From positions 94,676,001-94,740,000 of the forward strand of contig NC_086107.1 of NCBI RefSeq assembly GCF_963921235.1: a DNA stretch of 64,000 bases. Direction: 5' to 3'. This DNA is from Mobula hypostoma (taxonomy: Eukaryota). The translations under genes and the position numbers were made by a program. Shown one piece after another: positions 1 through 46,109 of this stretch. Positions within the stretch are counted from its first letter, which is position 1. The number at the start of each line of letters is the position of its first letter. Under the pieces are notes generated by a model. That model had not been told where the DNA came from. It made no database searches and worked only from the letters and a program-made list of their open reading frames with translations.

Positions 1-2994
1 AGAGGGGTAGAAAAGTCAGAATCTTTCTTTCCCCAGGGTGGAAAAGTCAAGTTCTAAAGGACGAGGTGAGAAGGGGAAAGTTTAAAGATGAGTGGGGTAA
101 GTTTTTTTTTAAACAATGAGAGTGGTGGGTGCTTGGAATGGACTGCTGGGAGTAGTGTTGGAGGCAGATACAATAGTGGTATCAAAGAGACTGTTAGATC
201 CAGTACATAAATACGCAGGGCATGGGGGCATCTGGATCGTGTGCTGGTAGAAGGCATTGGTTCAGTTGTCATCGTCTCTGGTGCAGACATTGTGGGCCGA
301 AGAGCTCATTGCTGTTCTATAACAGTATCAGTTCGGCGTAAACAAGAATATGCAAGAGTGTGTGCGTCTAAGCTGAGGCAGTCGGTATTGCAGAGATGGC
401 ACAGAGACAGCTCAGAGACAGCTCCACACCCTCAAGTTCAAATTTAATTGTCATTCAACCGTACACACAGATACAGCCAAAGAAAGCAGTGTTTCTCCAG
501 GGCCAAGGTGAAAACCACAGTACCAACAGTCACACACAGCACAAAGCCCAATACAGCACACGTAATTATGGTAACAGAAAAACATAGGCGGTATACAGTA
601 GCCCTAGTCCCTGAGTGTCATGGTCTGCAGGTTGCTGGTGCAAGGGTTGTTCTCCTGGAGCCACGTTTCTGCAAGAACAAGCACGCGCAGTTCCCCATCG
701 CACGCTACTGCAGCCGCAAGCGCAATCTACCCAGTGAACACTGGGGGGCAGCGTTAATGGGAGGAAACATCCCCCAACCCAGCGTGGAATCCAGAGCACC
801 CTCTCCTCTCTCCCACACCACCTGTGCCTTTCCTCCCCTGGGCGGCTGCAACAGGCAATCCTGTGGCACAAGGGCCTGCTGCACCCAACACCTGAGGCCA
901 CGCAGCTCCCCTGCTATTGGTACACCAATGAACCAGTGTGTAAGACCATAAGACAGAGAACAGTACAGGGCCTTTGGCCCACTATGTTGTGCTGACCTTT
1001 TAACCTACTCTAAGATCAATCTAACCCTTCCCCCTACATAGCCCTCCATTTTTCTATCATCTATGTGCCTATGTAAGAGTTCCATAAATGCCCTTAATGT
1101 ATCTGCCTCTACCACCACCCCTGGCAATATGTTCCTATGTGAAACCCTACCCCTTGACATCCCCCCTATACTTTCCTCAAATCACCTTAAAATTATCCTC
1201 TCTTGTATTAGCCATTGCCACCCTGGGAAGAAGTGTCTGACTGTCCACTCGACCCATGTCTTTTGGCAGCTTGTATACCTCTATCAGGTCATCTCTCAAC
1301 CTCTTTCACTCCGAAGAGAAAAGCCCTAGCTCGCTCAACCTATCTTCATAAGATGTGGCCTCTGGTTCAGGAAGCGTCTTGATAAATCTCCATTGTACCC
1401 TCTCAAAAACTTCCATATCCTTCCTATAATGAGGCGACCAGAACTGAACACAATATTAGTTTAACCAGGGTTTTATAGAGTTACAACATTACTTTGTGAC
1501 TCTTGAACTCAGTACCCTGACTAACGAAGAATAATTAGACCATTTGGCCCATCGATTCTGCTGTGCCATTTGATCATGGTAACCTCTCGGTAACCTTTGA
1601 CACCCGAACTAATCAAGAACCCATCAACCTAAGCTTTAAATATACCCAATGACTTGGCCTTCATGGCTGTCTGTGGCAATGAATTCCACAAATTCACCAC
1701 CCTCTGGCTAAAGAAATTTCTCCTCATTTCTGTTCTCAAGGGATGTCCTTCTGTTCTGAGGCTGTGACCTCTGGTTGGTGTGATGTGTGGTCTGTGAGTT
1801 TATGACTCTAGAAGCTAAGTCGGGTTTTCAGACAGTACTGACAGAAGGAAGTTTGTAGATAAGGAACTGGAGGATCCCTAGATTAGATCTTCCAAGAATA
1901 CCAAAGTGACAGGAGGAGGAGCCATTGCAGAGGGAATCTCTATCGATAACGATACAGATAAGCATGGAAACGCAGGTTCCGCCGGATTTGTAAAGATAGT
2001 TTGGAAGTCCAGTTGTGAAGACCACACAAGATGTCAGTGGTGATGTGGGACATCCAGCAGCAAGGGCAGCATGGTGAGTAGTGGTCAGCGTAACACTATG
2101 ACAGACCCAGTGACCTGGATTCGAATCCCACCACTGCCTGTTAGGGGTTTTTTAATGTTTTCCCCATGGCTGTGGGCATTTCCTCCAGGTGTTCCAGACT
2201 CCTTCCACGTTCTAAAGGCTTTTGATTTAGTAGGTCAATTGGTCACAGGGGTGTAATTGGCTGCACAGGTTCGTTGGATCGAAGGGCCTGTTACCGTGCT
2301 GTATCTCTAAATTTAAAGAAAAATGTACAAAGTAAGCTCCCAGAAACAGCATGAGGTTACAGCCAATCAATCTGTATAGTTTTGATAATGGTGGTGTGGG
2401 AGATAAAGGCTGAGATGATCAATGGCTCCATTTAATTATCAGAGAATGTATACAATATACAACCTGAAATTCTTACTCTCCGCAGACATCCTTGAAACAG
2501 AAGAAAGGCTTTGTTTCAGAGAAAAGTTCCTATTTTCTTGGGATCTTTCACCACTGCACCAGCGCAGTGCAGACCTGCAGCGCGGACAGTGTGCTCGGAT
2601 CGCGAGTGTGGGGCCACCACCTGATTCAGATCAACCTGATGAAGGGTCTCAGCTTGAAACAGTGTTTATTCCTCTCCATAGATTCTGCCCGACCTGATGA
2701 GTTACTCCAGCATTTTGCATGTGTTGCTGTAGATTTCCAGCATCTGCAGAATCCCTTGTGTTTCTGATTCAGCACTGAGTTCTATCCATGAGTCACAATA
2801 CACACCCTAAGCAAATACTACAGCTGATGTGTTCACACCAAGGTAGATTTCTGCCGAGGGGCTTGGCCATTTGACACGGTTTTGTTGGTGTTGGTTAGAT
2901 TGGCTAAGCAACTGGGAGAACTGTTTTTTTTAAACAGTAGTAGGGTTTTTTTTCCTATATGCCAGTCTTAATTAGAGCCCTGTCATCGCTCTGT

Positions 2995-3330
2995 CACCAC
3001 AGCACAGTAGCGTTGCGGTTAGTGTAACACCTTACAGCACCAGCGATTGAAAGAATGGGGTTCAATTCCCACAGCTGTATGTAAGGATACTGTACATTCT
3101 CCCTGTGACTGTGTGGGTTCCCTCTGGTGCTCCTGTTTCCTTCCACATTCCAAAGACGTACCAGTTAGGGTTCGTAAGTTGTGGGCATGCCACGTTGGCT
3201 CCTGAAGCATGGTGACACTTGCAGGCTGCCCCCAGCACATTCTTGGACTGTGTTGGTTGTTGACGCAAACGACACATTTCATCCCACGTTTCCATGTACA
3301 TGTGACAGAGAAAGCTAATCTTTTAATCCT
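2995..3330 (+). mobile_element. V-domain (HE1-like) tRNA-derived SINE; related copies near 2060, 6340, 22750, 25550, 27840, 40620, 42190, 42660, 52560, 53140, 53670 and 54150
   Basis: tRNA-like head plus the V-domain 'TTCTCCC.GTGAC.G.GTGGGTT.CCTC.GGTGCTCC.GTTTCC.CCAC'. Confidence 0.75.
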
Positions 3331-4197
3331 TTATACTTTTTAAATGTCAGAAAACTAAGCATCACTATTTTGGATGCTGGAAGAGCTTGAGTTGGGATGT
3401 CATGTTACAAATGTACAAGTCAATGACGGGACTGTATTTGCAGTCTCGTGTGCAGTTCTGGTCGCCCAGCTGTAGAAAGCATGTTGTTCAGCTGGACAGG
3501 GCTCAGAAAAGATTCACGAGAATGTTACCGGGACTGGAGGGCTAGAATTATAAGCAGAGGTTTATAAAATCATGAGATGTATAGAAAAGCTGGGTAGACA
3601 GAAACACACAAGGGTCTCGGCCCAAAACATCGATTCTTTATTGTTCCTCCAGCATTTTGCGTATGTTGCCCTGGATTTCCAGCATCTGCAGAATCTCTTG
3701 TGTTTGGGTAGTCATAGGCTTTTTACCACCCCTATAGTAGGGTTTCAAGGAAAGACTTAATAAAGGGTAGTGGGTGTATAGAGTGAGAGGCCAGAGGAAG
3801 TGATAGAGGCAGGTACGGGAACACGGATAGGGAAGAGAAAGGGTCATGAGCCAAATGTGGACAAATGGGACTAGCTCAGGCAACGGCTGATTTGAATAAG
3901 TTGGGCCAAAGGGCATCTTTCTGCGCTGTATAACTCAAATTAATTCTACTACTTTCTCAAATCGCTATCTTTACACGCAACTTAATAAGCATATCGGATC
4001 TTGACTAACATACGATTCAAAAGGCAGCACATCCAGCTCAGCACCCATTCCGTATTGGGGTATTGGCCTAACCCGGAGCAGGTCCTGAACCTGCAACTTC
4101 CTGAACCAGACTGTGAACCCTGGCTCTGCATGTGGATGTTGGGGCACTCACCATCTCCCCTCTCCGTTCTCACACACACCCCTCCCCACACCCCAAG

Positions 4198-4373: not shown

Positions 4374-5894
4374 GTGAGATTGTACGACAAAGGAGCATAA
4401 CTAGGCCATTTGACCCATCTTCTCCAATATTCCATCATGGCTGATTTATTATCCCTCTCAACCCCATTCTCCTGCCTTCACCCTGCAACCTTTGACACCC
4501 ATACTAATCAAGAATCTATCAACCTCTACTTTAAATATACCCATTGACTTGGCCTTCATGGCCGTCTGTGGCAATGAATTCCACAGAGTCACCACTCCTT
4601 GGCTAAAGAAGTTGCTCTTCATCTCAGTTCTAAAGGGACGCTCTTCTATTCTGAGTCTGTGTTCTCTTGTCCAAGACCCCCCCCCCACTATTGGAAAGAT
4701 CCTCTCCACTCCCACTCTATCGAAGATTTTCAATTTCAATGGGTTTCAATGACATCATCCTTCATTCCTCTAAGCTCCAGTGAGTATTGGCACAGAGCCA
4801 TCAAACGTGCGGTTAAGGCTGCATTGGGAGTGGACAATTCAGTGCTGAGTGATAAGAATACAAGGTACTGTTTGTTGAGTTTGTGTTTGGCCTCCCAATG
4901 CAGCAGACAAGGCAGAGGACAGTTGCTGTGGGAACAGGAAGGGAGGTTGAAATGAGAGGCAACTGAATGCTCATGGTGCTCATCCGCCCCCCCCCCCCAC
5001 CCCCAGTCTTAGAACATAGAACTTTGCATCACAGTACAGGCCCTTCGGCCCATGATGTTGTGCTGACCCTTTAACCTACTTTATGGAATAGCTATCTAAG
5101 AGTTTCTTAAATGTCCCAAATGTATCTGCCTCTACCACCACCCCTGTTAGGGGGTTCCAGGCATCCACCACTCTGGGTAAGAAAACTCATCTTTGACCTC
5201 CTCCTTATACTTCCCTCCAATCATCTTAAAATTATACCCCCTTGTATTTGTCATTTCTGCCCTGGGGAAAAAGTCTCTGGCAGTCCACTTGATCTGTGCC
5301 TCTTACTATCTTATACGCCTCCATTAAATCACCTCTCATCCTCCTTTGCTCCAGAAAGAAAAGCCCAAGCTCGCTCAACCTCTCCTCATAAGCCATGCTC
5401 TCTAATCCAGACAGCATTCCAGTAAATCTCCTTGCAACCTCTTTAAAGCTCCCATATCCTTCCTATCATGAAATGACCAGAACTGAACACAACACTACAG
5501 AGTTTTATACAGCTGTAACACTACCTTGCAGTTCTTGAACTCAACCAGTGAAGGCCAACACACCATACGCCTTCTTAACATTGTTCAGGCTTCCAGTTGT
5601 ACCTCCCAGTTTCTCGCTTGATTCCCTCCTCCCCTACCCACTTTCCCCCTCATCTGATCTCACCTATCGCCTCCCACTCTTCCTTATTCTGGCCTCTTCC
5701 CCATCCGTTCCAGTCCTGTTGGGTCTCAGCCCGAAACATCGACTGTTTATTCCCCTCCATAAATGCCCAGTTCCACCCGCATTTTGTATGCTTTTCTCCT
5801 TCATAAAGGGTTGCATCTCCGATGTAGCAGGGGGCAGATGTACCTGAAGCAGTTTCTCAATCAATCCCAATTCTTGTCACTTCTCTCTCTGCAG

Positions 5895-11764: not shown

Positions 11765-12705
11765 GTAAGCTCTATGTCATCAACTTATGCCTCGTAATGT
11801 TCCCCCAAAACGCAGGGCCGGAAGCTGCAGGAGAGAAGGGACTCTCGAGGTTGAATTCCTCCCCCTCCTGTACCCTCTGAACCTCATGGTTGGAAGACAT
11901 GCTCTCAATCTCTGTCTCTCCCTGAACTTTGCACAGTAATACGCAGCCTGTCCCTACAGATCAATGTTGCTATTCATGTTCTTTAAAAGACTCCTTGCAT
12001 TCTACTAAACCCAAAAATGTCATAGAGTACAACAGCACAGAGAGAGACTCTTCAGCCCATCTAGTCTGTGCTGGCCTGGTCTGTCTTGTCCCAACTACTG
12101 TTCTATAGCCCTCCAGACCTCCCTCATCCGTTTAAGACATTTAACATTTATCTCTCATTTAATACTTCTCTTAAATGTTACCAGTTGAACTCACATCTAC
12201 CACTGGCAGCTCATTGTATTCATCCACTCCTTTGTTCCTTGTATTACCCCATCTAACCAGTCTGGGATAAGGGGTTTATCCTGGATTGCCTACCTTTTTA
12301 TCCCATTCTGATACATGTGTTCATTTCTTCTATTATTCTTGTAGTTATCACCCCTTTTCTGGTCTTGTCTACCAGTACAAACATCATCTAATATTTATCC
12401 TATTAAACCTCACTTCAAAGAGTTTCAAAGCTTTGATCTCTTTCCTGGTGAAGGGTTCCTGCCTGCTCACAATTCCCAGATAATTCTAACCTTCGATCAT
12501 GTTCATCGTAATCATTTTTATGCTCCTTTTTCTGTATTATTTTTAGAAGTTCTCCACCTACTGTCATCAGAAAGTTTCCCTCACTGCCTGTTCTTTTCAC
12601 ACTTTCATTTCCTTACCCTTTTCTTTCCTGCTCAATCCTCCTGTTCCATTGAGTTTAGTTTCTTTACATCCACTTCTACTGGAGTTATCTCAGCAAAGCC
12701 ACCTC

Positions 12706-12743
12706 CAGTCCTGATGAAGGGTCTCAGCCCGAAACATCGACTG
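12706..12743 (+). ncRNA. Minimal type-I hammerhead ribozyme motif in a Penelope-derived unit (about 12705-12840)
   Basis: cagtc CTGATGA a ggg-tctcag-ccc GAAA c ATC gactg: stem I cagtc/gactg, conserved core, NUH triplet. Confidence 0.72.
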
Positions 12744-12941
12744 TACCTCTTCCTAGAGATGCTGCCTGGCCTGCTGCATTCACCAGCAACTTTGATGTGT
12801 GTTGCTTGAAATTCCAGCATCTGCAGATTTACTCGTGTTCCAGTTCTGCATTGTTCTGTTTGTTGAAGCCCTCACCAGTCTGTGCTAGCCCCTCTAACTA
12901 TGCCATAGTCATACAGCATTTCTTCTTTGATGGCCCCTCCA

Positions 12942-13195: not shown

Positions 13196-14950
13196 TAAGA
13201 TCATAAGACATAGGAACAGAATTTGGCTATTTGGCCCAACGAGTCTGCTCCACCATTCCATCATGGCTGATTTTCCCCTCTCAACCCCATTGTCTTGCCC
13301 TCTCCCCATAACCATTGACACCCTGACTAATCAAGAACATATCAACCTCTGCTTTAAATATGCTCAATATCTTGCCCTCTACAGCCATCCGTGGCAATGA
13401 ATTCCACAGATTCACTACCCTCTGGTTAAAAAAATTCCTCCTCATCTGTTCAAAATGGTTATTCCTCTACTCTAAGGCTGTGCCCTCTGGTCATAAACTC
13501 CCCCACTATAGGAAACATCGTCCCTATCGATACTCTATACATTTCAATAAGGCCCCCACCCCGTCTCATTCCTCTAAACTCCAGCGAGTACAGGCCGAGA
13601 GTCATCAAACACTGCTCATACATTAACCCACTAACTCCCAAAATAATCCTTGTGAACCACCTCTGGACCCTCTCCAATGTCAGCACATCCTTTCTTAGAC
13701 AAGGGGCCCAAACCTCTCACAATACTCCAAATGTGGTCTAACCAATGCCTTATAAAGCCACAGCTTTACATCCTTGCTTTATTCTAGTCCTCCCGAAATG
13801 AATGCTTTGTCACCACTGACACAGCCTGTGAGTTGACCTTTAGGGGAATTCTGCACAAGGACTCCCAATTCCTTGTACCTTTGATTTTTCAATTTTCTCC
13901 TCATTTAGAAAATAGACTACGCTTTTATTCCCTCCACTATATTCTATCTGCCGTTTCTTTGCCCATTCTCCCAGTCCGTCCTCCTTCTGCAGACTCCCTG
14001 CTTCCTCAACACTACCCACCCTTCCACCTACCTTTGTATCAATTGCAAACTTGGCCACAAAGCCATCAGTTCCATCATCCAAATTACTGACATACAATGT
14101 GAAAAGAAGCGGTCCCAACACTGACCTCTGTCACCAGCAGCCAACCAGAATAGGACACCTTTATTCCTACTCTGCCTCCTGCCAGTCAGCCAATCTTCTA
14201 CCTGTGCTAGTATCTTTCCTGTAATACCATCGGCTCTTATCTTGTTAAGTAGCCTCATGTGTGGCACCTTGACAAAGATCTTATATAAATCCAAGTAAAT
14301 AACATACATTGATTTTCCTTTGTCTATACTGGCGGTTAACTACCTGAAGAACTCCAACAGATTTGTCAGGCAAGATTTCGCCTTAAGGAAACCATGGTGA
14401 CTTTGCCCTACTTTATCACACACCACGAAGTACCCAGAACTTCGTCCTTAATAACTAACTCCAACGTCTTCCCAACCACTGAAGTTAGGCTAACTGGTCT
14501 GTAATTTCCTTCCTCTTTCTCCCTCCCTTCTTAAAGAGTGAAGTGACATTTGCCATTTTCCAGACCTCCAAAATAATCTATTGATTCCTGAAAGATCATT
14601 ACTGATGTCTCCACAATCTCTTTAGCTGCCTGTTTCAGAACTCTGGGGTGTAGTCCATCTTGTCCAGGTGACTGTAGCTTTACACCTTTCAATTTGCCAT
14701 GCACCTTCTTAGTAATAGCAACTAAACTCACTTCTGCCCCGACACTCTCGCATTTCTGGCATACTACAGGAATTCTGCAGATGCTGGAAATTCAAGCAAC
14801 ACACATAAAAGTTGCTGGTGAACGCAGCAGGCCAGGCAGCATCTCTAGGAAGAGGTGCAGTTGACGTTTCAGGCCGAGACCCTTCGTCAGGACTAACTGA
14901 AGGAAGAGTGAGGACTGGCATACTGTTAGTTTCTTCCACAGTGAAGAATG
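13196..14950 (-). mobile_element. CR1-type LINE 3' half, degraded
   Basis: 'SPGQDGLHPRVLK', 'IYLDLYKIFVKVPH', 'LGPLLFTLYV...KFAIDTK', 'LERVQR...' fragments. Confidence 0.82.
14858..14895 (-). ncRNA. Minimal type-I hammerhead ribozyme motif in a Penelope-derived unit (14766-14914)
   Basis: Minus strand reads agtc CTGACGA agggtctcggcct GAAA c GTC aactg. The unit is flanked by the 10-bp direct repeat CTGGCATACT. Confidence 0.68.
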
Positions 14951-16817
14951 ACTTGATTGTTGAAGACACGCTTCCTAATAAATTTTGTTCCTCTGAAATG
15001 CAGGGTTAAGTTCAAATTTGATGCTAGTTGTTTTGTTAACTAGGAGGCTGGGACAATTCTGCATTAAGGAATGCCCCTTTTTAATTAGGATTAAAGCAGA
15101 AAAGAGGAGTTTTCTCTATTTACAGCAGCACTTGGTCTGAGGGCCTGCAGATCACAGAGCACTCTGGATCAAAGTGAATTGACCTTACTAGCATTATACT
15201 GGATTGGTGAAGACTGCATTCAGCTCAGCCAAGTATATAATGCTTAGATTGATGGGATCCAGATAGTCAGATGGTTATCACATGAGGTAAGTGATACAAA
15301 CATCCTAACTCCAGCCTTCATTTACGTGCCTGTTAAATGTCATATCGGTTCATAGCCTCCTCTACTGTCATGATGCGGCTGATTTCAAGTTGGAGAGAAA
15401 CACCACATTTTCCATCTGGGTAGCCTCCAACCTGACGGCATGAGCATCAATTTCTCTAACTTCCGGCAGTTTTCTCCCCTTCCCTTCTCTCCTTTCCCAA
15501 TCCCCATTTTGACTCCCTTTTTACACTGTCTTCTCATCTGCTTATCAGCTCCCTCTTCCTTCCCTTTCTCCCATGCTCCACTATCAGATTCTTCCTTCTT
15601 CAGCCCTTTACTAATCTACCTATTATCTTCCAGCTTCTTGCTTCCTCTCCCCCTTACCGGCCAACTTGTCCTCCTCCCCCACCGTATTCTCCCATCTTTT
15701 CCAGTACTGATGAAGGGCCTTAGCCCAAATCAACTGTTTATTTCCCCTCCATAGAAGCTGCCTGACCTGCTGAGTTCCTCCAGTATTTTGTGAGTCTTCC
15801 TCTAGACGTCCAGCAGCTGCAGATTCTCTGGTGTTTAGCAATTGGGAGTTCCCCCATAGATCATCTTGTCTGCCGTCCAGCTGGGATTTGGTCAGGGGAT
15901 TGTGAAGCAGAATGGGAAGCTGAGCAATTAAGTATCAGCACATTTAAGAAAAAGATAAGTTGGCAATTATTAAGTTTGTGAGGTCTTGGACCAAATCATT
16001 GCTTGCATGACTTGGGTAGAGGCTGACACCTAGTAACTGGAAGCAAGCTGGGTGATTTATTTTGGACACTGGGCAGAAAAATGAAATTATTCCAGAAATG
16101 CTGTATGTGAGGAGGAGGACATGCAATTGGGGAGATTTGACAGTGTTGCCAGAAACAAGAATTCTAGCTACACGAAAAATCAGGTGGGCTGGAGTTGCAT
16201 TCCTCCAACATCTTGGTTATTTCCTTTTGAGTTTTAGACCTGGAACAGACAAGTTATAAGGGATGGAAAAATAATGCTTTTCTCTGCTTGAGGCCATTGT
16301 AAACAAGCAGTTAAGGCAGATCAGGAAACGTTTGTGTGATCAGTGATTTGCAGAATAATATGCCAGGACTTGGGAACCAAGTTGCTCACGCTTGCTCTGT
16401 ATTCATATGTCAGAGCAACTCACACGAAATGCTGGAGGATCTCAGCAGGTCTGGCGGCATCCATGGAGGGGAAATAAAGGCAGTATGGGCCGAGACCCTT
16501 CATCAGGACTGGAAAGGATGGGAGAAGCCAGAATAAGAATCTGGGGGGTGGGGAGGGGAACAAATACACATGACAGGTGAGGGGGAAGGAGGGTATGAAG
16601 TAAGAAGCTAGGAGGTGATAGGTGGAAGAGGTAAAGGGCTGAGAAGGAAGGAATCTGATAGAAGGGGAGAGCAGACCATGAGAGAAAGGGAAGGAGGAGA
16701 GTCACCAGAGCGAGGTGATGGGCAAGTGAGAAGAAAAGGGATAAGACGGGAGCCAGAAAGGGGAATGGAAGAGGGTGGATGAGAAATCAATGTTCACGCC
16801 ATCAGGTTAGAACATGA

Positions 16818-29185: not shown

Positions 29186-31338
29186 CTGTTCGTGGGAGAG
29201 AGATGCGGAAAAACAAGTGATTAATAAAAGCAATTCCAAAGGAGAGAGAAGAACAGTGGCACTTTGATGAGCTGAACAATAAAAAATAGTTTCCAGGTTG
29301 CCCTGCGACTACAGGGGATAGCAAGGATACAGCCATCAGTCTTGCGATTAGTAAGAAGATAGAATCAACTATCTGGCCCACCGAGCCTGCTTCACCTTTC
29401 AATAAGATCATGGCTGACCTGGCCATGGACCTAGCTTCATCTACCTGCCTTTTCCCCATAATCCTCTGCTATGTAAATATCTAAGTTTTAAATATATTTC
29501 AAGGTATAGGCTCTACTGCTTCCCTAAGTAGAGAATCTAACAGATTCACTATCCTCTGGGAAAAACGGTTCCTCATCTCCATCTTAAGTTGCCTCCTTGA
29601 ATCTTGAGGCTACGTCCCCTAATTCCAGACTCACATATCAGTGGAAACAGCTTTCCTGCCTGTGTCTTACCCATCCCTTTCATAATTGCATGTTTCTATA
29701 AGACTCCCTTTCATTCTTCTGAATTCCAACAGGTATAGTACCAGGTGACTCAAATCTCTCCTCACAGGTCAACCCCCTCATCTCTGTAATCAACCTCATG
29801 AACCTCCTCTGCACTGCCTTCAAAGCCAGTATATCTTTCAAGTCAGGAGACCAGAACTACATGCGGTACTCCAAACGCGGCCTCACCATTAACCTGTATA
29901 GTTGTAGCACAACCTCCCAGTCCTTCAATTCAGTACCACCACTAATGAAGACCAGCATTCTATTTGCCTTCTTGATAACCTGTTGCACCTGCAAACCAAC
30001 TTTTTGTAATTCATGCACAAGCACTCCCAAGTCCCTCTGCACAACAGCATACTGCAGTCTTTCACCATTTAAGTAATCATCTGATCGTCTAGTTTTCCTG
30101 TCTAGATCTGTCTGCAGATTCTCCGCATCATCTGCACAGTTTGCTTTTCCAGATCTGGCTGTAGTCATTGGCCACGCTTTACTCATCAAGAATCTATCAC
30201 ACTTGCCTTAAAAAAAAAAGTACTGTCCTTGAAGGAAGAGTATTTTGAACCCTCATCACTCTTAAAAAATATTTTATATTGTGTATTAAGTGGTGAATTT
30301 CTAGTTCTAGACTCTCCCACACATCCACTTAGTCAACGTTTCTCAGGATCAACCAAGTCACCTCTCACTCCTCTGAATTCCAGTGGATATCCCATGACAA
30401 TCACAGATATTCCTTTTGTCCAATCGATGACCCTCCCTGCAACTTCAAACCAATGCACTCTCACCTTGAGCAACACTCACAAAATGCTGGAGGAACTTGG
30501 CAGGTTGGGCAGCATCTGTGGAGGGGAATAGACAGTCATGTTTTGGGCTGAGACCCTTCATCAGGACTGGAAAGGAAGGGGACCTTCCCAGTTTTAATGA
30601 AAGGTCTCCAACCTTAAGCATTAACTGCTTCTCTTTCTGCAGATGCTACCTGATCTACAAGAGTTTCTCAGCATTTTCTGCCTTTTATCCCACCAGAGCC
30701 AAATCTTTTATAAGATGACTTGCCGAGTCCAGGTATTATTTGATTCGACTTACCCTGCAAGGTTAACGTTTGGGTCATACTTGGTGCTGCTGCTACCATG
30801 GGTACAGAAGTCTGAAGTCCCATACGAGCAGGTCATGAACCAACCTGCACAATTCAAACCCTACCTCAGCAACAGAACACTATGGACCACGTGTTACACT
30901 ACCATAGACTTGTCTCTGTATAAACATGAGAGAGAGAGTGGGGGGGGGGGAGAGGCAGGGACAGCCCACAGGTGTTGCCACACATTCCAGCACTAGCACA
31001 GCATGCCAACAATATTCAGCAGAACAAAAGGTAACACAACAAAACAGAACATACCAAGCAATTAAGCAACAACAGCGAAACAAGCTCGTTCCTTCCTTCT
31101 TCCCACGCAGATACACAGTGCTCAACCCCAGGGCAGCCTTTTCTGTAGCCTCCAGTGCTGCACGCTTTGTAAGTGTAACCTCAGCCCTATATTCTGCATT
31201 CTCCTTATTGATTTTCCCATGTACTTCCTTAAGTACCTATGCTTGAAGTTATCTGTATTAATGGACTGCAAAACTTGTTTCTTTTTCCTCGTGACAATAA
31301 TAAATTAATACCGATGCCAAGACTGCAGTTAGACCTAC

Positions 31339-31761: not shown

Positions 31762-34700
31762 CGATGCCAAGCTCTTCTTCTGTCACTCAGTCTCCGAGCC
31801 CACTCCTTTGGCAAGAAGTCCCCAGCCCGCACTGATAACCACTTCTCCTGTCTCCAACCCTCCTCCTCTTCTTGGATACCCCCCTCTGGTCGTCTGCCTG
31901 CTCTGGATCTTATCTCTAATTGCCGACAAGACACTAACCGGCTCAACTTCAGCATTCCTCACTCCTCCTTGAACCTTACCCCTTCTAAGCTGCCCTCCAC
32001 ACCACTAAATGTGCAAAGGGGGTGTTGCTGTCGTGTTGGGGAGTGACCTCTACCTTTCTGAGGTCAAGTGGTGACTCTCAGACACCTCCTTTTACTTACC
32101 CCTTGAGAAAGGCCCCAGTCTGGACCATCAGAAAATTGCCTCCAACACCATCACTAACCTCATCAACTCTGGAGAACTCCCATCCACAGCCAGCAAACTC
32201 ATAGCTCCCTTACTCTGCACTGCTCATTCCGACCTTCTACCCAGATCCACAAACCTGACAGCCCAGGTAGACTTATCGTCTCTGCCTGCTCGTGCCCTGA
32301 CACCTAAACTCTATTCTGTCCCCCTTGGTTCAGTCCCTTCCCACCTATATCCATGACACTTCCCAAGCTCTTGATCTCCTCAACAACGTTCAATTCCTTG
32401 GCCCTGACTGCCTCATTTTCACCATGGATGTCCTGTCCCTATACACTTTTATCTCCCATCGTGGCCTTAAAGCTCTCTGCTTCTTACTCAGCAAAGGAAC
32501 CAACCAGTTCCTCTCCGCCATTTCATCACGGCTGATCTCGGATTCCATTCAACCCCATTCACCCGCCCTCTCACCATACCTCTTGATGCCCCGACCATTC
32601 AGAAATCTATCAACTTCTGCTTTAAATATATCTACAAACTTGGCCTCAACCATAGTCTGTGGCAGAGCATTCCACAGATTCACCACTCTTTGGTTAAAAA
32701 AATTCCTCCTTATTTCTGTTCTAAAAGGTCACTCCTCAATTTTGAGGCTGTGTCCTCTAGTTCTGGATACCCCTATCAAATGAGGCATCCTCTCCACATC
32801 CACCTTATCTAGTCTTTCCAACATTTGGTAGGTTTTGATAAGATCCCCACACATTCTTCTAAATTCCCGTGAGTACAGGCTGAAAGCTGCTAGATGCTCC
32901 TCATATCTTAACTCCTTATTTCCCAGAATCTTTTCTTTTCAAATCTTTTGTTATATTATACAACAGAAATAACACGAGTACACTGAAGTACAACACATAC
33001 AATGTCCCAAAAAAGATATTATCTTAAAGATTAAAAAAAAATTTGTGATAACAAAAAAAACCTACTAAGCAGAAAAAGTGAGAAAAAAAAACCATTAGGT
33101 GTACAACCCCGGAGCCATGTGTCATACAAAAACCTTCTAAAAATAAACATCAAACCACCAGCAAGGAAAGAAAATATACCAAAAAATTTACAATTAGATC
33201 GTGGAAAAAAAATCTATCAATTAGCTCAAATAATAACGAGCAAATGAGCCCCATCTTTTCTCAAAATCAAATAAAGGTTCAAAGGTTCGACTTCTAATTT
33301 TCTCCAAACTAAGACATAGCATCACTTGAGAGAACCATTGTGACAAAGTGGGAGCTGATATATCCTTCCACTTCAACAAAATGGCCCTCCTAGCTATCAA
33401 TGTAACAAATGCAATAACATGTTGGTCAGACACAGAAATATCATGAATATTTTGAGGAATTATTCCAAAAAGCACAGTTAATTTATTAGGTTGTAGATTA
33501 ATTTTAAGTGCTTTATAAATTGTTGAAAAATCTGACTTTCAAAACTGTTCCGATATAGAACAAGACCAAAACATATGTGTCAGTGTAGCTATCTCCGTTT
33601 TACATCTATCACAATAACTATCAACATTAGAAAAGATTTTTAAAGTCTCTCCTTCATCAAATGATAACGATGTACAATTTAAAACTGAATCAATGAATGG
33701 CTAGCACAAATTGAAGAAGAGTTAACCAGCTTCAAAATCCGCATCCAATCCTCCCGTCATAAAAGTCAAATTGAGTTCCTTTTCCCAATCCTGTTTAATC
33801 TTAGATAAAGGACGCTTATCCCACTGTAATAATAAATTATAAACTCTTCCACTAGAACCCTTGATCGAAGGATTCATATTCATAATAGTATCTAACAGGT
33901 CAGCCTCCAATATGTAAGGAAAACTACTTAAATATTTTTGTAAAAAATGTCTAACTTGAAGGTATTGCAGAAAGTGCGAGTATGAAAGAGAATATCAATT
34001 AATTGTCCAAATGACATCAATCTATCTTCTTTAAATAAATCCAAAACAGAATTAGTACCTTTATTTTTCCAAAATAAAAAAATTGGATCACTCAAAGAAG
34101 GCTTAAAAAAGTAATTTCGATAAATTAAACTACAAAGTTTAAATTTTTTAAGATTAAAAAAATTGCGGAACTGGAGCCAAATTTGTAAAGAATGCTTAAT
34201 CACAGGATATAGGTTTAAGCTAGCAACTTCAGCTAATTGTATAGGTAAAGCAGCTCCCAATAACGAGATTAAATAAAACTGTTTTACAACTTTCAGTTCC
34301 AGGTCTACCCACATTGGCCGATCACTCTTATCAACCCAATATAACCAGAAAGACATGTATTTTGATCCTCAGCCGAGATTTTAGGAAAAACAATCTTTCA
34401 TAAAAAAGCAAACAACAGGAATTCTGCAGATGCTGGAATTTCAAGCAACACACATCAAAGTTGCTGGTGAACACAGCAGGCCAGGCAGCATCTCTAGGAA
34501 GAGGTAGAGACGGTACCTCTTCCTAGAGATGCTGCCTGGCCTGCTGCGTTCACCAGCAACTTTGATGTGTGTTGCTTTCATAAAAAAGCATTCATTTCAG
34601 AAGAATCTAACAGACATTGGGATTTATAAAGTTCAGCATAAAAATCTTGAAAAATCTTATTAATTTCTTCATATTCCTGAGCCAAGGTACCATCTTTCCT

Positions 34701-37700: not shown

Positions 37701-39352
37701 CAGCATTATCTCCTTGCTTTTATATTCTATTCTGCTTGAAACAAATGCCAACATTGCATTTGCTTTCTTTACCACAGACTCAACCTGTGAATTAACCTTC
37801 TGGGAGTTTTGCACAAGGACTCCTAAGTCCCTCTGCACCACCACCATCCTCCATCTGGCAGAACTGGTCCTCATTCTCAACAAATTCTCTTTCAGCTCCT
37901 CCCATTTTCTCCAGACTCAAAGAGCACTCACAATGCCTCCAGCTATGCCTGCCCTTTCATTGGTTATGTAGAACAGTCCGTGTTCTGAGCTTTCCATGGA
38001 AATACTCCCCAACTCTTCCTGCGCTACAATGACGACTGCGTTGGTGCTGCTTCATGCACCCATGCTGAGCTCATCAATGTCATCAATTTTGCCTCCAACT
38101 TCTACATTGCCCTTAAATTCACTTGGTCCATTTCTGACACCTTCTAACCTTTCTCAATCTCTCCGTTTCCATCTCTAGAGACAAACTGTCTACTGGTATC
38201 TTTTATAAACCTACTGAATTCCCATGGTTATCTTGACTATACCTCTTCCCACCCGAAAAAAAGCTATTCCCCACTCTCAGTTCCTTCATCTCTGCCACAG
38301 GATGAGACTTCCCTTTCCAGGACCTTTCTTCCAAGTAATGGGGTTTCCTTTCCTCTACCACTGATGCTGCCCTCAATTACATCTTCTCCATTTCCCAGAC
38401 ATCTGGATTCCAGCCACTTTAACAGGGATAGCATGCCTCTTGCCCTCACCCCTTACCCAACACATCATTCTCTGCAGCTTCTGCCACCTTCACTGGGATC
38501 CTACCACCAAACACATCTTTCTCTCTTCCAACTCTCCACAGGGTTCGTTCCTCCTGTAATTCCTTTGTCCATTCGTCACTCCCCACTAATCTCCCTTCTG
38601 ACACTTACCCCTGCAAGCAACCAAAATGCTACATCTGCCCATTTACCTCCTCTCTTAACTTCATTCAGGGCCCCAAACACTCCTTCCAGATGAGGCAACA
38701 CTTCACCTGCAAACATGTTGGCATCATCTACTGTATCTGGTGTTCCTAGTTGTAGCCTCCTCTACCACCGCTGAGACCCAATGTAGGTTGTGGGACCACT
38801 GTTGTGAACCTTTGCTCCATCCACAAAAAGCACTATTTCCCAGTTGTCAACCATTCCAACATGTCAGTCCATTTCCTCTTCTTTTGGCACAATGAGGCCA
38901 CTCTCAGGGTGGAGGAGCAACATATCATATTCTGTCTGGGTAGTCTCCAACCCACACTGATTTCTCCCTTCTGGTAAATTTTCCCTCTCCCTTCTTCTAT
39001 TCTTCACTCTGGCTTCTTAACTCTTCTCCTCATCAGCTTATCACCTCTCCCAGTACCCGTCCTCCTTCCCTTTCCCTCATGGTCCACTCTCCTCTCCTAT
39101 CAGATTCCTTCTTCTCCAGCCCATTATCTTTCCTCACTCACCTGGCTTCACCTATCACCTTCTAGATCGTCCTCCTTCCCCTCCCCCTACCTTTTCACTC
39201 TGGCATCTTCCCCCTTCCTTCCCGTCTTGAAGAAGGGTCTTGGCCCGAAACATCAACTGTTTATTCATTCCCATAGATGCTGCCTGGCATACTGCGTTTC
39301 CCCAGCATTTTGTGTTTTGCTCTGGATTTCCAGCAGCTGCAGAAACTCTTGT
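31762..39352 (+). mobile_element. Older decayed Penelope-like element, split by nested CR1 and L1 insertions (pieces about 31762-32520 and 37838-39352)
   Basis: RT remnant 'VQSLPTYIHDTSQAL...IFTMDVLSLYT', RY.DD-like codons near 38022, GIY-YIG-like remnant near 38720-38780, terminal hammerhead-bearing repeat at 39222-39352. Confidence 0.8.
32931..37568 (-). mobile_element. L1-clade LINE with ORF1, APE endonuclease and C-terminal Cys/His knuckle; RT domain absent
   Basis: 16-bp TSD CTTATTTCCCAGAATC (32915-32930, 37569-37584). ORF1 'DLETRSRQKNIRIVGVQEG' at 36618-37148; endonuclease fragments 35181-35708; knuckle CDRCKTEIATLTHMFWSC near 33560-33615. Confidence 0.9.
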
Positions 39353-41207
39353 GTACAAGGTTAATGGTAGGATTCTTAGCAGTGTGGAGGAATGGAGGGA
39401 TCTTAGGATCCATATCAATTGATCCCTCAAAGTTCCTGCATACGTTGATAGAGTGGTAAACAAGGCAGATGGTGTGTTACCTTCCTTAGCTGGGAAATTA
39501 AGTTGAAGAGCCACAAGGTAATGCTGCAGTTCTATAAGACTCTGGCTAGACCATCCTTGGAGTATTATGCTCAGCTCTGGTCAACTCAGTACAGGAAGGA
39601 TGGGAAAGAGGGTACAGAGGTGCACCTGGATTAGAGGGCATGTCTTATGAGGAAAGGTTGAGCGAGCTAGGGTTTTTCTCTTTGGAGCAAAGAAGGATTA
39701 GTAGTGACATGATAGAGGTGTTCAAGAGATAAGAGGCATAGACCAAGATGACAGTGAGAGACTTTTTCCCTACTATACATTAAGCAGGTCAACCCCAGGT
39801 TTCAGATTGTTTGTACAAATTCCTACGAAGTGTATAAACATGGGCATTGAACACCAAATAGGTCTAGGTGCAACACTTGCAGCAATTAATAACCTTCCTG
39901 TGTTACTTGCAGCAGTCCTAGAACCTACCCTAACATAAACACCAGAGATTCTGCAGATGCAAGGAATCCAGAGCAACACACACTAAAAACTGGAGCAGGC
40001 CCGGCAGTATCTATAGAAATGAATGACAGTCGACATTCAAGCCGAGATCCTTCATCGGTGTCCTAACTTGCTGAGTTCCTCCAGCATTTTGTGTGTGTTG
40101 CAATGAACCTTCTGTATCAGCTTCTGTGATCAGTGAATACCGTAATCGGCAGCAGGCACACTTGGGCAAAGTACGACAAAGCAAACCGGTGCAGCACGAT
40201 ACCACAGTGGTCAGTGTAACACTACTCCAAAGGGTGGAGGGGGAAGCTCCTTGAAACCTAGCGAATACTGAGAGGCTTCGATAAAGTGAACATGGAGAGG
40301 ATGCTTCCTATAGTGGGGGAGTCTAGGACCAGATGGCACAGCCTCAGAATACAAGGACATTCCTTTGGAACAGAAATTAGGAGCGATTTCTTTAGCCAGA
40401 AGGTGTTGAATTAGTGGAATTCATTGCCACAAACTTGCTGTGGAGACCAAGTCATTTGGTATATTTAAAGCAGAGTTTGATAGGTTCTTTATTAGTCAGA
40501 GTGTTAAAGCTTATGGGGAGGAGGCAGGAGAATGGGGTTGAGAGGGCAAGTAAACCACCATGATGGAATGATGGGCCGAACGGTCTAATTCTGCTCCTAT
40601 TGTCTTATTATAGAGACGGCAAACCGGGCTCAATTCTGCTGATATCTGCAGAGAGTTTGCACGTTTTCTCTGTGATCACATGGGTTTCCTCCGAGTGCTC
40701 CAATTTCCTCTTGCATTCCAGAGACGTATGGGTTAGTAGGTTAATTGGGTCACGTGGGTGACTTGGTCTCATTGGGCAGAAGGCCTGTTACCATCTCCAA
40801 ACTAAATTCAGCAGACGGTACAAATCTAATCATGTTTGTGAAAGTTGGAAGGAAATGCTTCAGGAAAGAAATGGCACCACACTGCCCCCCCCCCACAACC
40901 CCACCCAGACATTAAAGAGACTTTTCCCTATGTAAGCTGGTCCAGTTAATTGGCCAGTCTCAGTGACCCTGCACTTTGGCAGCCAAGGCATTAGTCAAGC
41001 GCTTTTATTATGCCTGAAAAGTCAAGAACTACAAATGCTGGAAATGTGAAGTGGAAGCAGAAAGGGATGGGAACACTCAGCAGTGCAAGGGGCATCTGTG
41101 GAGAGAGCTAAGATTCCACTTTGTAATTTCACTCCTTGAAATGAGTGCAATGAGAAACAGCGTTCATTTGCTAAGTTGCATTCTGCAGCATGAAAATATT
41201 TTTTATA

Positions 41208-41804: not shown

Positions 41805-42046
41805 TATATTTATATTTACTGTGTCATTTTATTGCATTCTTTGTACTGCATCAGATCCAGAGTAACAATCATTTCATTCTCCTTTCCACTCGTAAACTGA
41901 TGAATGACAATACACAACCTGGAAACGAAATGACATAGGGTTGACAACTAAAACCAAGTGCAGGGGTAGATCATGTAGCTCCTCTAACCCGCTACACAAT
42001 AAGTTCAATGTCAACTGTATTTCAACATTCAGCTCAAACACGTCAC

Positions 42047-43127: not shown

Positions 43128-43440
43128 AAAGGCATCCGTTAGTCTTGTGAGACCATGGATCTGCGCCTGGAAAGTCTTCACTCTCCAGGGCGCAGGCCTG
43201 GGCAAGGTTATATGGAAGACTGGCAGTTGGCCATGCTGCAAGTCTCCCCTCTCCACAACACCAATATTGTCCAAGGGAAGGGCATTAGGACCCATACAGC
43301 TTGGCACCAGTGTCGGTGCAGAGCAATGTGTGATTAAGTGCCTTGCTCAAGGACACAACACACATTGCCTCGGCTGGGGCTCAAACTCATGACCTTCAGG
43401 TCGCTAGTTCAATGCCTTAACCACTTGGCCACGTACCCAT
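43128..43440 (-). mobile_element. tRNA-headed SINE with CORE-like segment and RTE-like tail, copy 1
   Basis: Minus-strand A box TGGCCAAGTGG, B-box-like GTTTGAGCC, then TGTGTCCTTGAGCAAGGCACTTAA; highly similar to 44732-45039. Confidence 0.72.
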
Positions 43441-44731: not shown

Positions 44732-45039
44732 TAAAGGCATCCGTTAGTCTTGCGAGACCATGGATCTGCGCCTGGAAAGTCTTCACTCTCCAGGGCGCAG
44801 GCCTGGGCAAGGTTGTATGGAAGACCAGCAGTTGCCCATGCTGCAAGTCTCCCCTCTCCACGACACCAATGTTGTCCAAGGGAAGGGCATTAGGACCCAT
44901 GCAGCTTGGCACCAGTGTCGTCGCAGAGCACTGTGTGATTAAGTGCCTTGCCGAAGGACACAACACACGTTGCCTCGGCTGGGGCTCGAACTCATGACCT
45001 TCAGGTCGCTAGTCCAGACTACCTGGCCACGTGCCCACT
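44732..45039 (-). mobile_element. Same SINE family, copy 2
   Basis: B box GTTCGAGCC; near-identical body to 43128-43440. Confidence 0.72.
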
Positions 45040-46109
45040 ACATTATCTGGTTATATACCTTATATACATCTATTTAGTTAAATGACAATAAACTTGACTT
45101 GAAATCATGATTAAATCACTTGGATATTGTTCATGAGTGACCTAGATACTTAATTGAGATTGAGAGAATTTCCCAGTTGATGATACAAAAAATGGGGACA
45201 TCAAACTTTCAGCAAAGCCAGGGATGTTCCCTCCATGGTATGGAAGTTGAGAGGAGATCTGACCCCAGCACTGAAAAACTCGGGAGTCTGGGCTGGGCAG
45301 GATAGTGAGGCTCTGTTTTCACTGGTGAGATGGCCAAGAACCATTGGATTAAGGAAACTGGCAAAATTGCCAGGAATATATAATAAGCCAAGGAACTAAA
45401 CAGGTCAGGCAGCATCTATAGAGGGAAATGGATGGTCAATGTTTTGGATTGCGACCTTTTGTCGGGACTAGAGGAAAAGGGAGTAGCCGACATGAAAAGG
45501 GTAAGGGGAGGGAGTGGAGCAAGAGCTGGTGGTTGATAGGTGGATCCAGGTGAAAGGGAAGGGGTGATAAACAGACGGGGAGGGGGAGAGTGGGAATGAT
45601 GGACAAAGCTAGGAGGTGATAGGTGGAAATGACAAAGGACTAGAAAAGATGGAACCTGATAGGAGAGGATTTCATGTGATTAATAAATCAATCTGATCTA
45701 ATAAAGGGAGGAAAGAGTGGCATGAAGATTTCTTTTTGCCCTCCTTTTATACAAAGGCACTTTGGGTCTGGAAGTATGCTGCTGGGGTTACGTAGTAGTG
45801 CAGACGTGCTCAATTGCGGTGCTCAAAAACAAATGGCTGAGTACTTAAATGGGGGGAAAGAAAAAGAATCACACAGACCACGGGAAGAGGGGTGAAGGCA
45901 TGGTAGGCAGCCATTTGATTTGTCAAATTTTGTGAGTAAAATTGTCTCCTCTAACATGGTAACATCTGAGATACGATACACCCAATTGGATACATGGCAA
46001 TGGGCAAACTGACTTGAAATGACTGCGTCATCTCCTCCCTCACCCAAATGCAAGTTACACTGAGAGAAAGCCATTTTGTTAACCAGTGATGCCTAATAAA
46101 AGGGCTTAC

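What the first reader, a model, noticed from the sequence alone, without database searches (positions are those of the whole stretch)
2630..45470. Dispersed family of minimal hammerhead ribozymes on short Penelope-derived units
Seen: a unit of about 130-170 nt recurs with consensus cagtc-CTGATGA-a-gggtctcggccc-GAAA-c-GTC-gactg. Copies are at about 2636(+), 3611(+), 5711(+), 12706(+), 14858(-), 15702(+), 16480(-), 18737(-), 28300(-), 30533(-), 39222(+), 40027(-) and 45433(-). This is a type-I hammerhead layout: stem I cagtc/gactg, CUGANGA and GAAA core, stem II, NUH cleavage triplet. Stem III is reduced to the palindrome ACGU with no loop. Established: Penelope-like element termini and retrozymes carry such minimal hammerheads, which are thought to cleave as dimers. 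Inference: this genome has a very abundant hammerhead-carrying family (about one copy per 4-5 kb here) inside the pre-mRNAs of both genes. Most copies look damaged (ACGT to ACAT, CGAAA to TGAAA/CAAAA). I cannot tell whether this family is already annotated.
Basis: partly seen in the sequence, partly recalled or inferred. Interest (0 to 1): 0.85.

Follow-up and report, generated by a model that had tools for sequence, protein, structure and literature searches.

The report
Penelope retrotransposon ends carrying minimal hammerheads
The repeated 130-170 base units are the broken-off tail ends of a very abundant Penelope-like jumping gene, each carrying a minimal hammerhead ribozyme motif of a kind already described for such elements, so the finding is correct but ordinary.

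Summary
All 13 named copies exist, and nhmmer finds 20 pieces in the window, including five head-to-head pairs. The units are not a separate short family. They are the 3' ends of 5'-truncated Penelope-like elements (PLEs): end of the pseudo-LTR, a 38-nt minimal type-I hammerhead, then 70-110 nt up to one of two alternative 3' termini.

Elsewhere the genome holds 3.5-kb copies with a 1043-aa open frame (reverse transcriptase, then a C-terminal GIY-YIG nuclease) flanked by the same hammerhead. ORF copies are 98-99% identical to each other.

The motif meets the published criteria for PLE minimal hammerheads: CUGANGA, an extra base before G10.1, GAAA, palindromic ACGU with no loop, and GUC. Rfam models do not detect it.

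None of the 14 hammerhead-bearing window copies is intact.

Evidence for ribozyme function here is mixed. The hammerhead block is the best-conserved part of the unit and N7 is its most variable core base, but there is no significant covariation. One proliferating subfamily has A6 changed to C, and the youngest has G10.1 opposite U11.1 (29,805 exact copies). No RNA data could be obtained.

Verdict: a new member of a known kind, of low to moderate interest.

The parts
12701..12841 (+). PLE 3' terminal unit with the long 3' end. The hammerhead motif is at 12706-12743. The core is intact, but ACGU is changed to ACAU (G16.2 to A).
14766..14914 (-). PLE 3' terminal unit of the young subfamily. The hammerhead is at 14858-14895 (UAGUC CUGACGA ... 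GCCU GAAACGUC AACUG; G1.1 changed to A). It is flanked by a 10-bp target-site duplication, AGTATGCCAG, at 14915-14924 and 14756-14765.
2635..2767 (+). Damaged unit, truncated at the 5' strand of stem I. Stem II and the GAAACGUC region are mutated. Long 3' end.
3610..3708 (+). Damaged unit. CUGAUGA is missing and GAAA is changed to AAAA.
5705..5793 (+). Damaged unit with a deletion in CUGAUGA. The upstream pseudo-LTR is present.
15696..15839 (+). Damaged unit. GAAA is lost.
16404..16518 (-). Damaged unit. The GAAACGUCGA stretch is deleted.
18697..18889 (.). Head-to-head inverted pair: 18697-18771 on the minus strand and 18781-18889 on the plus strand. The junction lies inside the hammerhead.
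28249..28338 (-). Damaged unit. C17 is changed to G.
28848..28950 (.). Head-to-head inverted pair: 28848-28877 on the minus strand and 28880-28950 on the plus strand.
30465..30679 (.). Head-to-head inverted pair: 30465-30577 on the minus strand and 30583-30679 on the plus strand. Both arms reach the hammerhead.
34405..34582 (.). Head-to-head pair of tails without a hammerhead. The arms meet at about the predicted cleavage site (model positions 49 and 46). The pair forms an 85-nt perfect hairpin at 34468-34552.
39217..39365 (+). Damaged unit (C3 changed to U), contiguous with an upstream PLE ORF relic.
39933..40121 (.). Head-to-head inverted pair: 39933-40057 on the minus strand and 40062-40121 on the plus strand.
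45391..45472 (-). Heavily damaged unit.
22604..22715 (+). Weak tail-only match (E 1.1e-4). Membership is uncertain.

Best explanation
Each unit is the 3' terminal module of a Penelope-like retrotransposon (PLE). It consists of the last bases of the pseudo-LTR, a 38-nt minimal type-I hammerhead, and 70-110 further bases that are the leader or start of the open frame of the next tandem copy. The hammerhead has stem I of 5 bp, CUGANGA, one unpaired A, a 4-bp stem II with a tetraloop, GAAA, the loop-less palindrome ACGU standing in for stem III, and a GUC cleavage triplet.

Shown here:
- The full element is about 3.5 kb, with a 1043-aa RT + GIY-YIG open frame and the same hammerhead on both sides.
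- Insertions end at one of two sites about 36-40 nt apart.
- Most insertions are 5'-truncated, have short target-site duplications, and are often paired head to head.

Inferred from published work on PLEs:
- New copies arise by target-primed reverse transcription that starts inside the RNA at those two sites and usually stops early, leaving only the hammerhead plus tail.
- Priming on both DNA strands gives the inverted pairs.
- In transcripts of intact tandem copies, two hammerheads pair through ACGU and, probably with help from the element's protein, cut after GUC. I put in-vivo cleavage at about 55%.

The copies in this window are dead relics with no expected activity.
For: Anatomy. The GIY-YIG C-terminus (..LRLEEQHLIFRLGSLQPDGMNIDFSNFR*) lies 290-430 nt upstream of the hammerhead in longer copies.

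Full-length copies. Five fetched copies each carry a 1043-aa open frame between two same-strand hammerhead units 3,512-3,516 nt apart. Each is preceded by a partial tandem copy, and one also by an inverted copy.

Domains. Pfam finds RVT_1 at residues 534-696 (E 3.8e-5) and GIY-YIG at 946-1020 (E 1e-3).

Homologues. 901 proteins match at E<=1e-10, with precomputed RVT_1 and GIY-YIG domains.

Recent activity. 78 further scored ORF matches are 98-99% identical, and at least 8 have exactly 1043 open codons. The young 38-mer occurs 29,805 times exactly, against 0 in the control.

Two 3' termini. Of 92 hits, 30 end at model positions 106-125 and 40 at 146-155. This matches the optional 30-40 bp PLE 'tail' between two RT start sites described in PMC11167929 (main text read).

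Target-site duplications. AGTATGCCAG in the window. L010 and L009 also show them.

Head-to-head bias. Among the first 100 listed places there are 10 (-,+) pairs within 800 nt and 0 (+,-) pairs (my count). There are five such pairs in the window.

Motif criteria. The criteria of PMC4209133 (read) are met by the consensus: an extra base between positions 9 and 10.1, G10.1-C11.1, and palindromic 15.2-16.2.

Conservation. At non-CpG sites the hammerhead block is 87.4% identical to the majority residue, against 78.1% and 81.0% in the tail and 62.8% upstream. This is from 52 copies not chosen by their hammerhead. N7 is the least conserved non-CpG base of the block at 0.61.
Against: No Rfam hammerhead model matches, even at E<=10. 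This is expected when stem III is missing, but it means membership rests on a hand-read motif.

Both Pfam domains score below their curated cut-offs: RVT_1 23.9 against 29.6 bits, and GIY-YIG 19.7 against 22.6 bits. No homologue is named Penelope by its source.

There is no significant covariation in stems I and II. The score is 0.216 against a shuffled mean of 0.198, and 65 of 500 shuffles are as high.

A subfamily with CUGCCGA (A6 changed to C, a core base I recall as essential) has spread. It accounts for 4-5 of 32 unselected copies and 123 exact 28-mers.

The youngest and most prolific lineage has U at position 11.1, giving G.U, and a weaker hammerhead-type fold: -7.7 against -11.2 kcal/mol.

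Published work reports low in-vitro activity for such minimal motifs (PMC4209133), insertion in vitro that is unaffected by hammerhead mutations, and no RNA-seq ends at the cut site (PMC11167929).

No cleavage or RNA evidence was obtained here.
Confidence: 0.85

Rival explanations
1. The units are PLE 3' ends, but the hammerhead-like block is no longer (or never was) needed as a ribozyme. It would be kept for another role, such as protein or RNP binding near the RT start sites, or simply carried along. Lineages with crippled cores would then transpose just as well.
For: The A6-to-C subfamily is frequent: 4-5 of 32 unselected copies and 123 exact cores against 0 in the control. The most successful young lineage has G10.1 opposite U11.1. 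There is no covariation. PMC11167929 (read) reports that hammerhead catalytic mutants do not change insertion in vitro and that no RNA-seq reads end at the cut site. PMC4209133 (read) reports low activity in vitro.
Against: Two of the three subfamilies seen keep every invariant core base. N7, the one free core position, is the most variable non-CpG base. The ACGU palindrome and the GUC triplet are kept in the consensus forms. A G.U pair at 10.1-11.1 may be tolerated. The A6C masters may have been mobilised in trans.
Confidence: 0.3
2. The short units are an independent non-autonomous family, SINE-like or retrozyme-like. They would be transcribed from their own copies and mobilised by PLE protein, rather than being truncated ends of full elements.
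For: Some copies begin at or within about 12 nt of the 5' edge of stem I and have target-site duplications (L009, L010). Some head-to-head pairs of exact hammerheads are separated by only -2 to 43 nt. A 2026 preprint (10.64898/2026.07.22.740005; abstract and passages read) argues that animal retrozymes derive from PLE pseudo-LTRs.
Against: The 5' ends are spread along the whole unit and further upstream into the pseudo-LTR and ORF. Once copies chosen for an intact hammerhead are set aside, enrichment at stem I is weak. The unit sequences are the same as the ends of full-length copies. No tandem arrays of the unit were seen. The one 460-nt same-strand pair examined was two nested insertions of different age.
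Confidence: 0.07
3. The hammerhead resemblance is a chance feature of a repeat.
For: The strict core pattern alone is not enriched in the window, and Rfam finds nothing.
Against: The consensus meets all sequence criteria of the published PLE minimal hammerhead. It sits where PLE hammerheads sit, between the pseudo-LTR and the ORF (PMC4209133, PMC11167929). It is the best-conserved block between subfamilies whose flanks differ.
Confidence: 0.02

Closest known systems
Minimal hammerheads (min-HHR) in the pseudo-LTRs of metazoan Penelope-like elements (Cervera & de la Pena 2014, PMC4209133, read; dimer cleavage by Lunse et al. 2017, known to me only through passages of the review PMC6765202)
   Same: Type-I layout. 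CUGANGA / GAAA / UH core. One unpaired base between positions 9 and 10.1. G10.1-C11.1 in the older consensus. Palindromic 15.2-16.2 with no loop 3. Location in the PLE flanking repeat. Thousands of dispersed, mostly solitary and variable copies, some in opposite strands 100-700 bp apart.
   Different: Stem II is short here (4 bp plus a tetraloop), against 6-8 bp in the schistosome and Drosophila examples. The dominant young lineage has G.U at 10.1-11.1. One subfamily has C at position 6. This species and family are not named in the papers I read.
Poseidon PLE of Anolis carolinensis, PAc (Frangieh et al. 2024, PMC11167929, main text read)
   Same: Hammerhead at the junction of pseudo-LTR and ORF. 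Insertions end downstream of it at two nearby sites that define an optional 30-40 bp 'tail'. Partial tandem organisation. Both DNA strands are used, which fits the head-to-head pairs seen here.
   Different: In PAc the ORF starts at stem II, and reverse transcription starts in an AC-rich stem-loop 111-118 nt into the ORF. Here the young variant has no AUG in CUGACGA. The open frame opens about 90 nt after the hammerhead. The short terminus lies in a GU-rich stretch (UGUGUGUUG).
Non-LTR retrozymes of animals (Cervera & de la Pena 2020, PMC7229834, abstract only; Li et al. 2026 preprint, abstract and passages)
   Same: Type-I hammerheads with a very short stem III that need two copies to cleave. 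The preprint proposes descent from PLE pseudo-LTRs.
   Different: Retrozymes are tandem arrays that give small circular RNAs. Here the units are dispersed single or inverted copies, continuous with a coding PLE. No arrays were seen.
Rfam hammerhead families
   Same: Same catalytic core by eye.
   Different: No match at gathering score or at E<=10 over the whole window. The Rfam models expect a stem III.

Membership tests
PLE minimal hammerhead (Cervera & de la Pena 2014) | Conserved core: C3 U4 G5 A6 N7 G8 A9 ... G12 A13 A14 A15.1 ... U16.1 H17 | tested here: met
   The core is present in the older consensus (1,635 exact cores) and in the young variant (29,805 exact copies). It is not met in the CUGCCGA subfamily, nor in 12 of the 14 window copies (read by eye).
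PLE minimal hammerhead (Cervera & de la Pena 2014) | Type-I topology, with an open stem I of 4-6 bp | tested here: met
   CAGUC/GACUG gives 5 bp. UAGUC/GACUG gives 4 bp plus a G.U pair. Stems I and II both appear in the minimum-energy fold of the monomer.
PLE minimal hammerhead (Cervera & de la Pena 2014) | One unpaired nucleotide between A9 and G10.1 | tested here: met
   An A follows CUGANGA in all consensus forms.
PLE minimal hammerhead (Cervera & de la Pena 2014) | G10.1-C11.1 closing pair of stem II | tested here: inconclusive
   The pair is G-C in the older consensus but G.U in the young, most abundant lineage. Across 31 distinct copies the pair types are GC 17, GU 8, AU 1, other 4.
PLE minimal hammerhead (Cervera & de la Pena 2014) | No stem III or loop 3; palindromic 15.2-16.2, so that two copies can form stem III together | tested here: met
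   The sequence is GAAA-CG-UC, so A15.1 C G U16.1 is the self-complementary ACGU. The palindrome is broken in the 12706 copy, which reads ACAU.
PLE minimal hammerhead (Cervera & de la Pena 2014) | Lies in the flanking repeat of an element encoding RT + GIY-YIG | tested here: met
PLE minimal hammerhead (Cervera & de la Pena 2014) | Self-cleavage after H17, as a dimer | not testable with these tools
   No bench test was possible and no RNA reads were available.
PLE minimal hammerhead (Cervera & de la Pena 2014) | Compensatory changes in the stems within consensus families | tested here: not met
   The covariation score is 0.216 against a shuffled 0.198, with 65 of 500 shuffles as high. 87.2% of cells are paired, against 86.4% when shuffled. 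Power is low, because the copies are decayed descendants of a few closely related masters.
Penelope-like element | A single ORF with a reverse transcriptase followed by a C-terminal GIY-YIG endonuclease | tested here: met
   RVT_1 lies at residues 534-696 and GIY-YIG at 946-1020 of the 1043-aa frame, in the right order. Both are below Pfam's curated cut-offs. Homologues carry the same precomputed domains.
Penelope-like element | Partial tandem (pseudo-LTR) and inverted arrangements, with 5' truncation | tested here: met
   Upstream partial tandem copies of 600-1,730 nt in 5 of 5 full-length loci, and an inverted copy in 1 of 5. Head-to-head pairs.
Penelope-like element | Optional 30-40 bp 'tail', meaning two alternative 3' termini | tested here: met
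   End positions are bimodal: 30 and 40 of 92 hits fall in two clusters about 36-40 nt apart.
Rfam hammerhead families | Score at or above the gathering threshold of a hammerhead covariance model | tested here: not met
   0 matches at gathering score. No hammerhead family appears among the 20 matches at E<=10.
Non-LTR retrozyme | Tandem array of hammerhead-bearing units | tested here: not met
   Copies are dispersed or inverted. The one close same-strand pair examined is two nested insertions. No genome-wide tandem search was done.

The most novel reading that the evidence does not exclude
This genome is a natural experiment on whether PLEs need their hammerhead. The lineage that has recently spread most widely carries a weakened stem II (G10.1 opposite U11.1). 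It has 29,805 exact hammerhead copies and ORFs 98-99% identical to each other. An older, frequent subfamily carries C at the invariant A6. If these variants are catalytically poor or dead, ribozyme cleavage is dispensable for PLE retrotransposition in vivo, and the conserved block is kept for some other reason.
Probability: 0.3. Interest if true: 0.5.

Novelty: new member of a known kind. Interest (0 to 1): 0.25.

Why it matters
Minimal hammerheads at the ends of Penelope-like elements have been in print since 2014, and their abundance in fish, amphibian and reptile genomes is known. The finding therefore adds a family, not a principle.

Its practical value is for annotation. A rough extrapolation from 7 hits in 80 kb suggests on the order of 10^5 such pieces, which would otherwise look like unexplained ribozyme candidates inside genes.

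The modest scientific hook is that this genome offers three natural hammerhead variants, each at high copy number: the canonical form, a form with G.U at 10.1-11.1, and a form with A6 changed to C. It also has many ORFs that are still open. This makes a direct test possible of whether cleavage matters for PLE spread.

Tried and rejected
Rfam over the whole window gave no hammerhead family, either at gathering score or at E<=10. The only notable hits were sub-threshold miRNA models on the 34468-34552 hairpin.

RNA evidence: no RNA holder was listed. All 22 runs offered were assembled contigs of uncertain kind. Laying four of them showed only that contigs of several coded organisms cover the unit. 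No places where molecules begin or end were reported. This says nothing for or against expression, cleavage, splicing or circles.

Helix covariation by genome-wide pattern searches: the core-anchored lists show mostly UAGUC or CAGUC paired with GACUG, plus scattered single changes. The formal count on 31 distinct unselected copies shows no excess.

A 5'-end hot spot at the edge of stem I, and a possible 3' splice site there (polypyrimidine tract plus CAG, as reported for Drosophila virilis Penelope in PMC4209133): the enrichment of 5' ends is weak once hammerhead-selected copies are excluded. The contig 'joints' to that position have unknown letters in between, and I read them as divergent pseudo-LTRs of other subfamilies rather than splicing. 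Not supported.

Retrozyme-like tandem: the single 460-nt same-strand pair examined is a young copy inserted next to a 90%-identical older copy.

A larger random sample of the genome for copy number was not possible.

The paper by Lunse et al. 2017 (PMC5785218) is not held. I did not check the supplements of PMC4209133 that list species and accession numbers, so I cannot say whether this species was covered.

Earlier scan notes returned nothing, by place or by sequence.

A PDB sequence search with the ORF gave no match.

Full report
THE OBSERVATION

The window lies in a 3.48-Gb, 200-contig genome. A profile built from 20 genome copies finds 20 pieces in the window at E<=1e-3.

The 38-mer occurs 76 times exactly in the genome, against 0 for the reversed control. 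Its 28-nt core occurs 1,635 times, against 0.

The strict core pattern alone is not enriched in the window: 3 matches against 1.03 expected, with 8 of 100 shuffles reaching 3. This is because the copies are damaged. By my reading, none of the 14 hammerhead-bearing copies has the whole motif. Two keep all core bases:
- 12706-12743+ has ACGU changed to ACAU.
- 14858-14895- has G1.1 changed to A.

Rfam finds no hammerhead at gathering score or at E<=10.

WHAT THE UNIT IS

I fetched 8 kb around 20 exact copies of the consensus. The homology extends up to 434 nt upstream and about 110 nt downstream of the motif.

The upstream part is a C/T-rich non-coding stretch. It is preceded by the decayed C-terminus of a GIY-YIG nuclease, ending ..LRLEEQHLIFRLGSLQPDGMNIDFSNFR*.

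One neighbouring copy has a 549-aa open frame with RVT_1 and GIY-YIG matches. That frame is followed about 290 nt later by a hammerhead unit.

Searching the genome with this frame gave 79 scored matches. Of these, 78 are 98-99% identical, with open frames up to 1,054 codons, and at least 8 have exactly 1,043. The tool's first look counted 270,777 candidates.

Five copies with the 1,043-codon frame all show the same plan:
- a hammerhead unit;
- an open frame that opens inside the unit's last 50 nt;
- a stop codon;
- a pseudo-LTR of about 295 nt;
- a second hammerhead unit, 3,512-3,516 nt after the first;
- an upstream 5'-truncated tandem copy of 600 to more than 1,730 nt in all five, and an inverted copy in one.

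On the full frame, Pfam places RVT_1 at residues 534-696 (E 3.8e-5) and GIY-YIG at 946-1020 (E 1e-3). Both are below the curated cut-offs. A search of the protein collection found 901 relatives at E<=1e-10 with the same precomputed domains. The closest named ones are uncharacterized proteins of a bamboo shark at 69-72% identity, and none is named Penelope by its source.

From established knowledge, RT followed by a C-terminal GIY-YIG nuclease, with partial tandem and inverted arrangements, is the signature of Penelope-like elements.

HOW THE SHORT UNITS ARISE

The 3' ends of 92 profile hits fall in two clusters about 36-40 nt apart. Thirty end near ..UGUGUGUUG and 40 near ..CUCUUGUGUUUG (the five full-length copies use both).

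This is the optional 30-40 bp 'tail' that Frangieh et al. traced to two internal start sites of reverse transcription in an Anolis PLE. In that element the hammerhead also sits at the junction of pseudo-LTR and ORF (PMC11167929, main text read).

The 5' ends are scattered, from inside the tail to far upstream. That pattern is expected from premature termination.

Target-site duplications are visible: AGTATGCCAG around the 14766-14914 copy, and others in L010 and L009.

Copies are often paired head to head. There are five such pairs in the window. Among the first 100 listed exact copies of the young motif, 10 (-,+) pairs lie within 800 nt and no (+,-) pair does (my count). This fits the published observation that the PLE protein cleaves and extends both DNA strands, but the link is my inference.

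The units are therefore truncated PLE ends, not a separate short family. The one close same-strand pair I examined was a young copy inserted beside an older one.

IS THE HAMMERHEAD REAL AND FUNCTIONAL?

The consensus meets the sequence criteria that Cervera and de la Pena set out for PLE minimal hammerheads (PMC4209133, read):
- CUGANGA;
- an unpaired base before G10.1;
- G10.1-C11.1;
- GAAA;
- palindromic 15.2-16.2 without a loop;
- a UH cleavage site.

Stems I and II appear in the minimum-energy fold.

In 52 copies not selected by their hammerhead, non-CpG positions of the 38-nt block match the majority at 87.4%. The figures are 78.1% and 81.0% in the tail and 62.8% upstream. The least conserved non-CpG base of the block is N7, at 0.61, which is the one free core position. 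Subfamilies whose flanks differ strongly share the block.

Several results point the other way:
- Stems I and II show no significant covariation. The score is 0.216 against 0.198 when shuffled, and 65 of 500 shuffles are as high. The copies are decayed descendants of a few related masters, so the test is weak.
- A subfamily with CUGCCGA (A6 changed to C), which also shares its own changes at the start of the tail (my reading), makes up 4-5 of 32 unselected copies. It has 123 exact cores in the genome.
- The youngest lineage reads UAGUC-CUGACGA-A-GGGUCUCGGCCU-GAAACGUC-GACUG. It has G10.1 opposite U11.1 and a less stable hammerhead-type fold, -7.7 against -11.2 kcal/mol. Yet it has 29,805 exact copies.

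That A6 is essential is something I recall, not something tested here.

Published work reports low in-vitro activity of such motifs, protein-assisted cleavage, insertion in vitro unaffected by hammerhead mutations, and no RNA-seq ends at the cut site (PMC4209133, PMC11167929; review passages in PMC6765202).

I could obtain no RNA data. I therefore put in-vivo cleavage by intact copies at about 55%. A non-catalytic or dispensable role is the main rival.

ABUNDANCE

Eight 10-kb stretches taken at arbitrary places held 7 pieces, covering 826 bp or about 1%. This extrapolates to the order of 10^5 copies, with wide error. The window is about 3.6 times denser than that sample, with 20 pieces in 64 kb against 7 in 80 kb.

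COMPARISON AND VERDICT

This is a member of a known kind: PLE minimal hammerheads, described in 2014 for many metazoans including fishes. It shows the PLE tail described in 2024.

It differs in detail from the published examples: a short stem II, a G.U closing pair in the dominant lineage, an A6C subfamily, and an open frame that starts after the motif rather than in it.

Whether the family is already in repeat libraries could not be checked. I did not read the supplements of the 2014 paper that list species.

Noticed in passing
window 34468-34552: Two tail pieces joined head to head form an 85-nt near-perfect hairpin. It scores 64.6 bits against Rfam mir-4529 (gathering score 88), and it also hits several other miRNA models below threshold on both strands. 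This is probably just a transposon palindrome, but such hairpins could feed small-RNA pathways.
   Followed up: partly
window 48602-52463 (+): An LTR-type retrotransposon body with long open frames. Pfam finds DUF7041, RVT_1 (77 bits), RNase H-like domains, an integrase zinc-binding domain and an integrase core. The region is the most GC-rich part of the window, at 0.567. I only observed it and did not analyse it further.
   Followed up: partly
window 28369-28926 (+), 32301-32783 (+), 38148-38693 (+), 61963-62439 (-): By eye, these open stretches resemble parts of the PLE ORF: RT-like, the zinc-finger linker, GIY-YIG-like, and the C-terminal ..QPDSMNTDFS. Two of them lie just upstream of hammerhead units (28880+, 39217+). 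Pfam found nothing for the two that I submitted.
   Followed up: partly
window 35181-37160 (-): Two open stretches of 178-180 aa that look by eye like LINE ORF pieces. Pfam gave no match.
   Followed up: partly
L019:3778-3978: Four tandem repeats of a 56-nt piece made of an inverted tail fragment plus a short flank, directly upstream of a hammerhead unit. The origin is unexplained. It may be repeated abortive priming at one target.
   Followed up: no
hammerhead consensus, e.g. L010:4001-4038: The cleavage site sits in the 6-nt palindrome GUC|GAC, which overlaps the ACGU palindrome. A GUCGAC self-duplex between two RNAs would compete with the ACGU pairing needed for the active dimer. In the 34405-34582 pair, the two arms meet at about this point.
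   Followed up: no
upstream of stem I, e.g. L023:1640-1680, L014:3960-4003: The pseudo-LTR ends in a long polypyrimidine run followed by CAG, directly at the 5' edge of stem I. This resembles a 3' splice site. In Drosophila virilis Penelope an intron is reported to end at that edge (PMC4209133). I found no evidence for splicing here.
   Followed up: partly
window 42765-42840 (-): A sub-threshold tRNA model match: 24.5 bits against a gathering score of 29. L017 also holds a tRNA-like sequence just upstream of a PLE end. Not examined.
   Followed up: no
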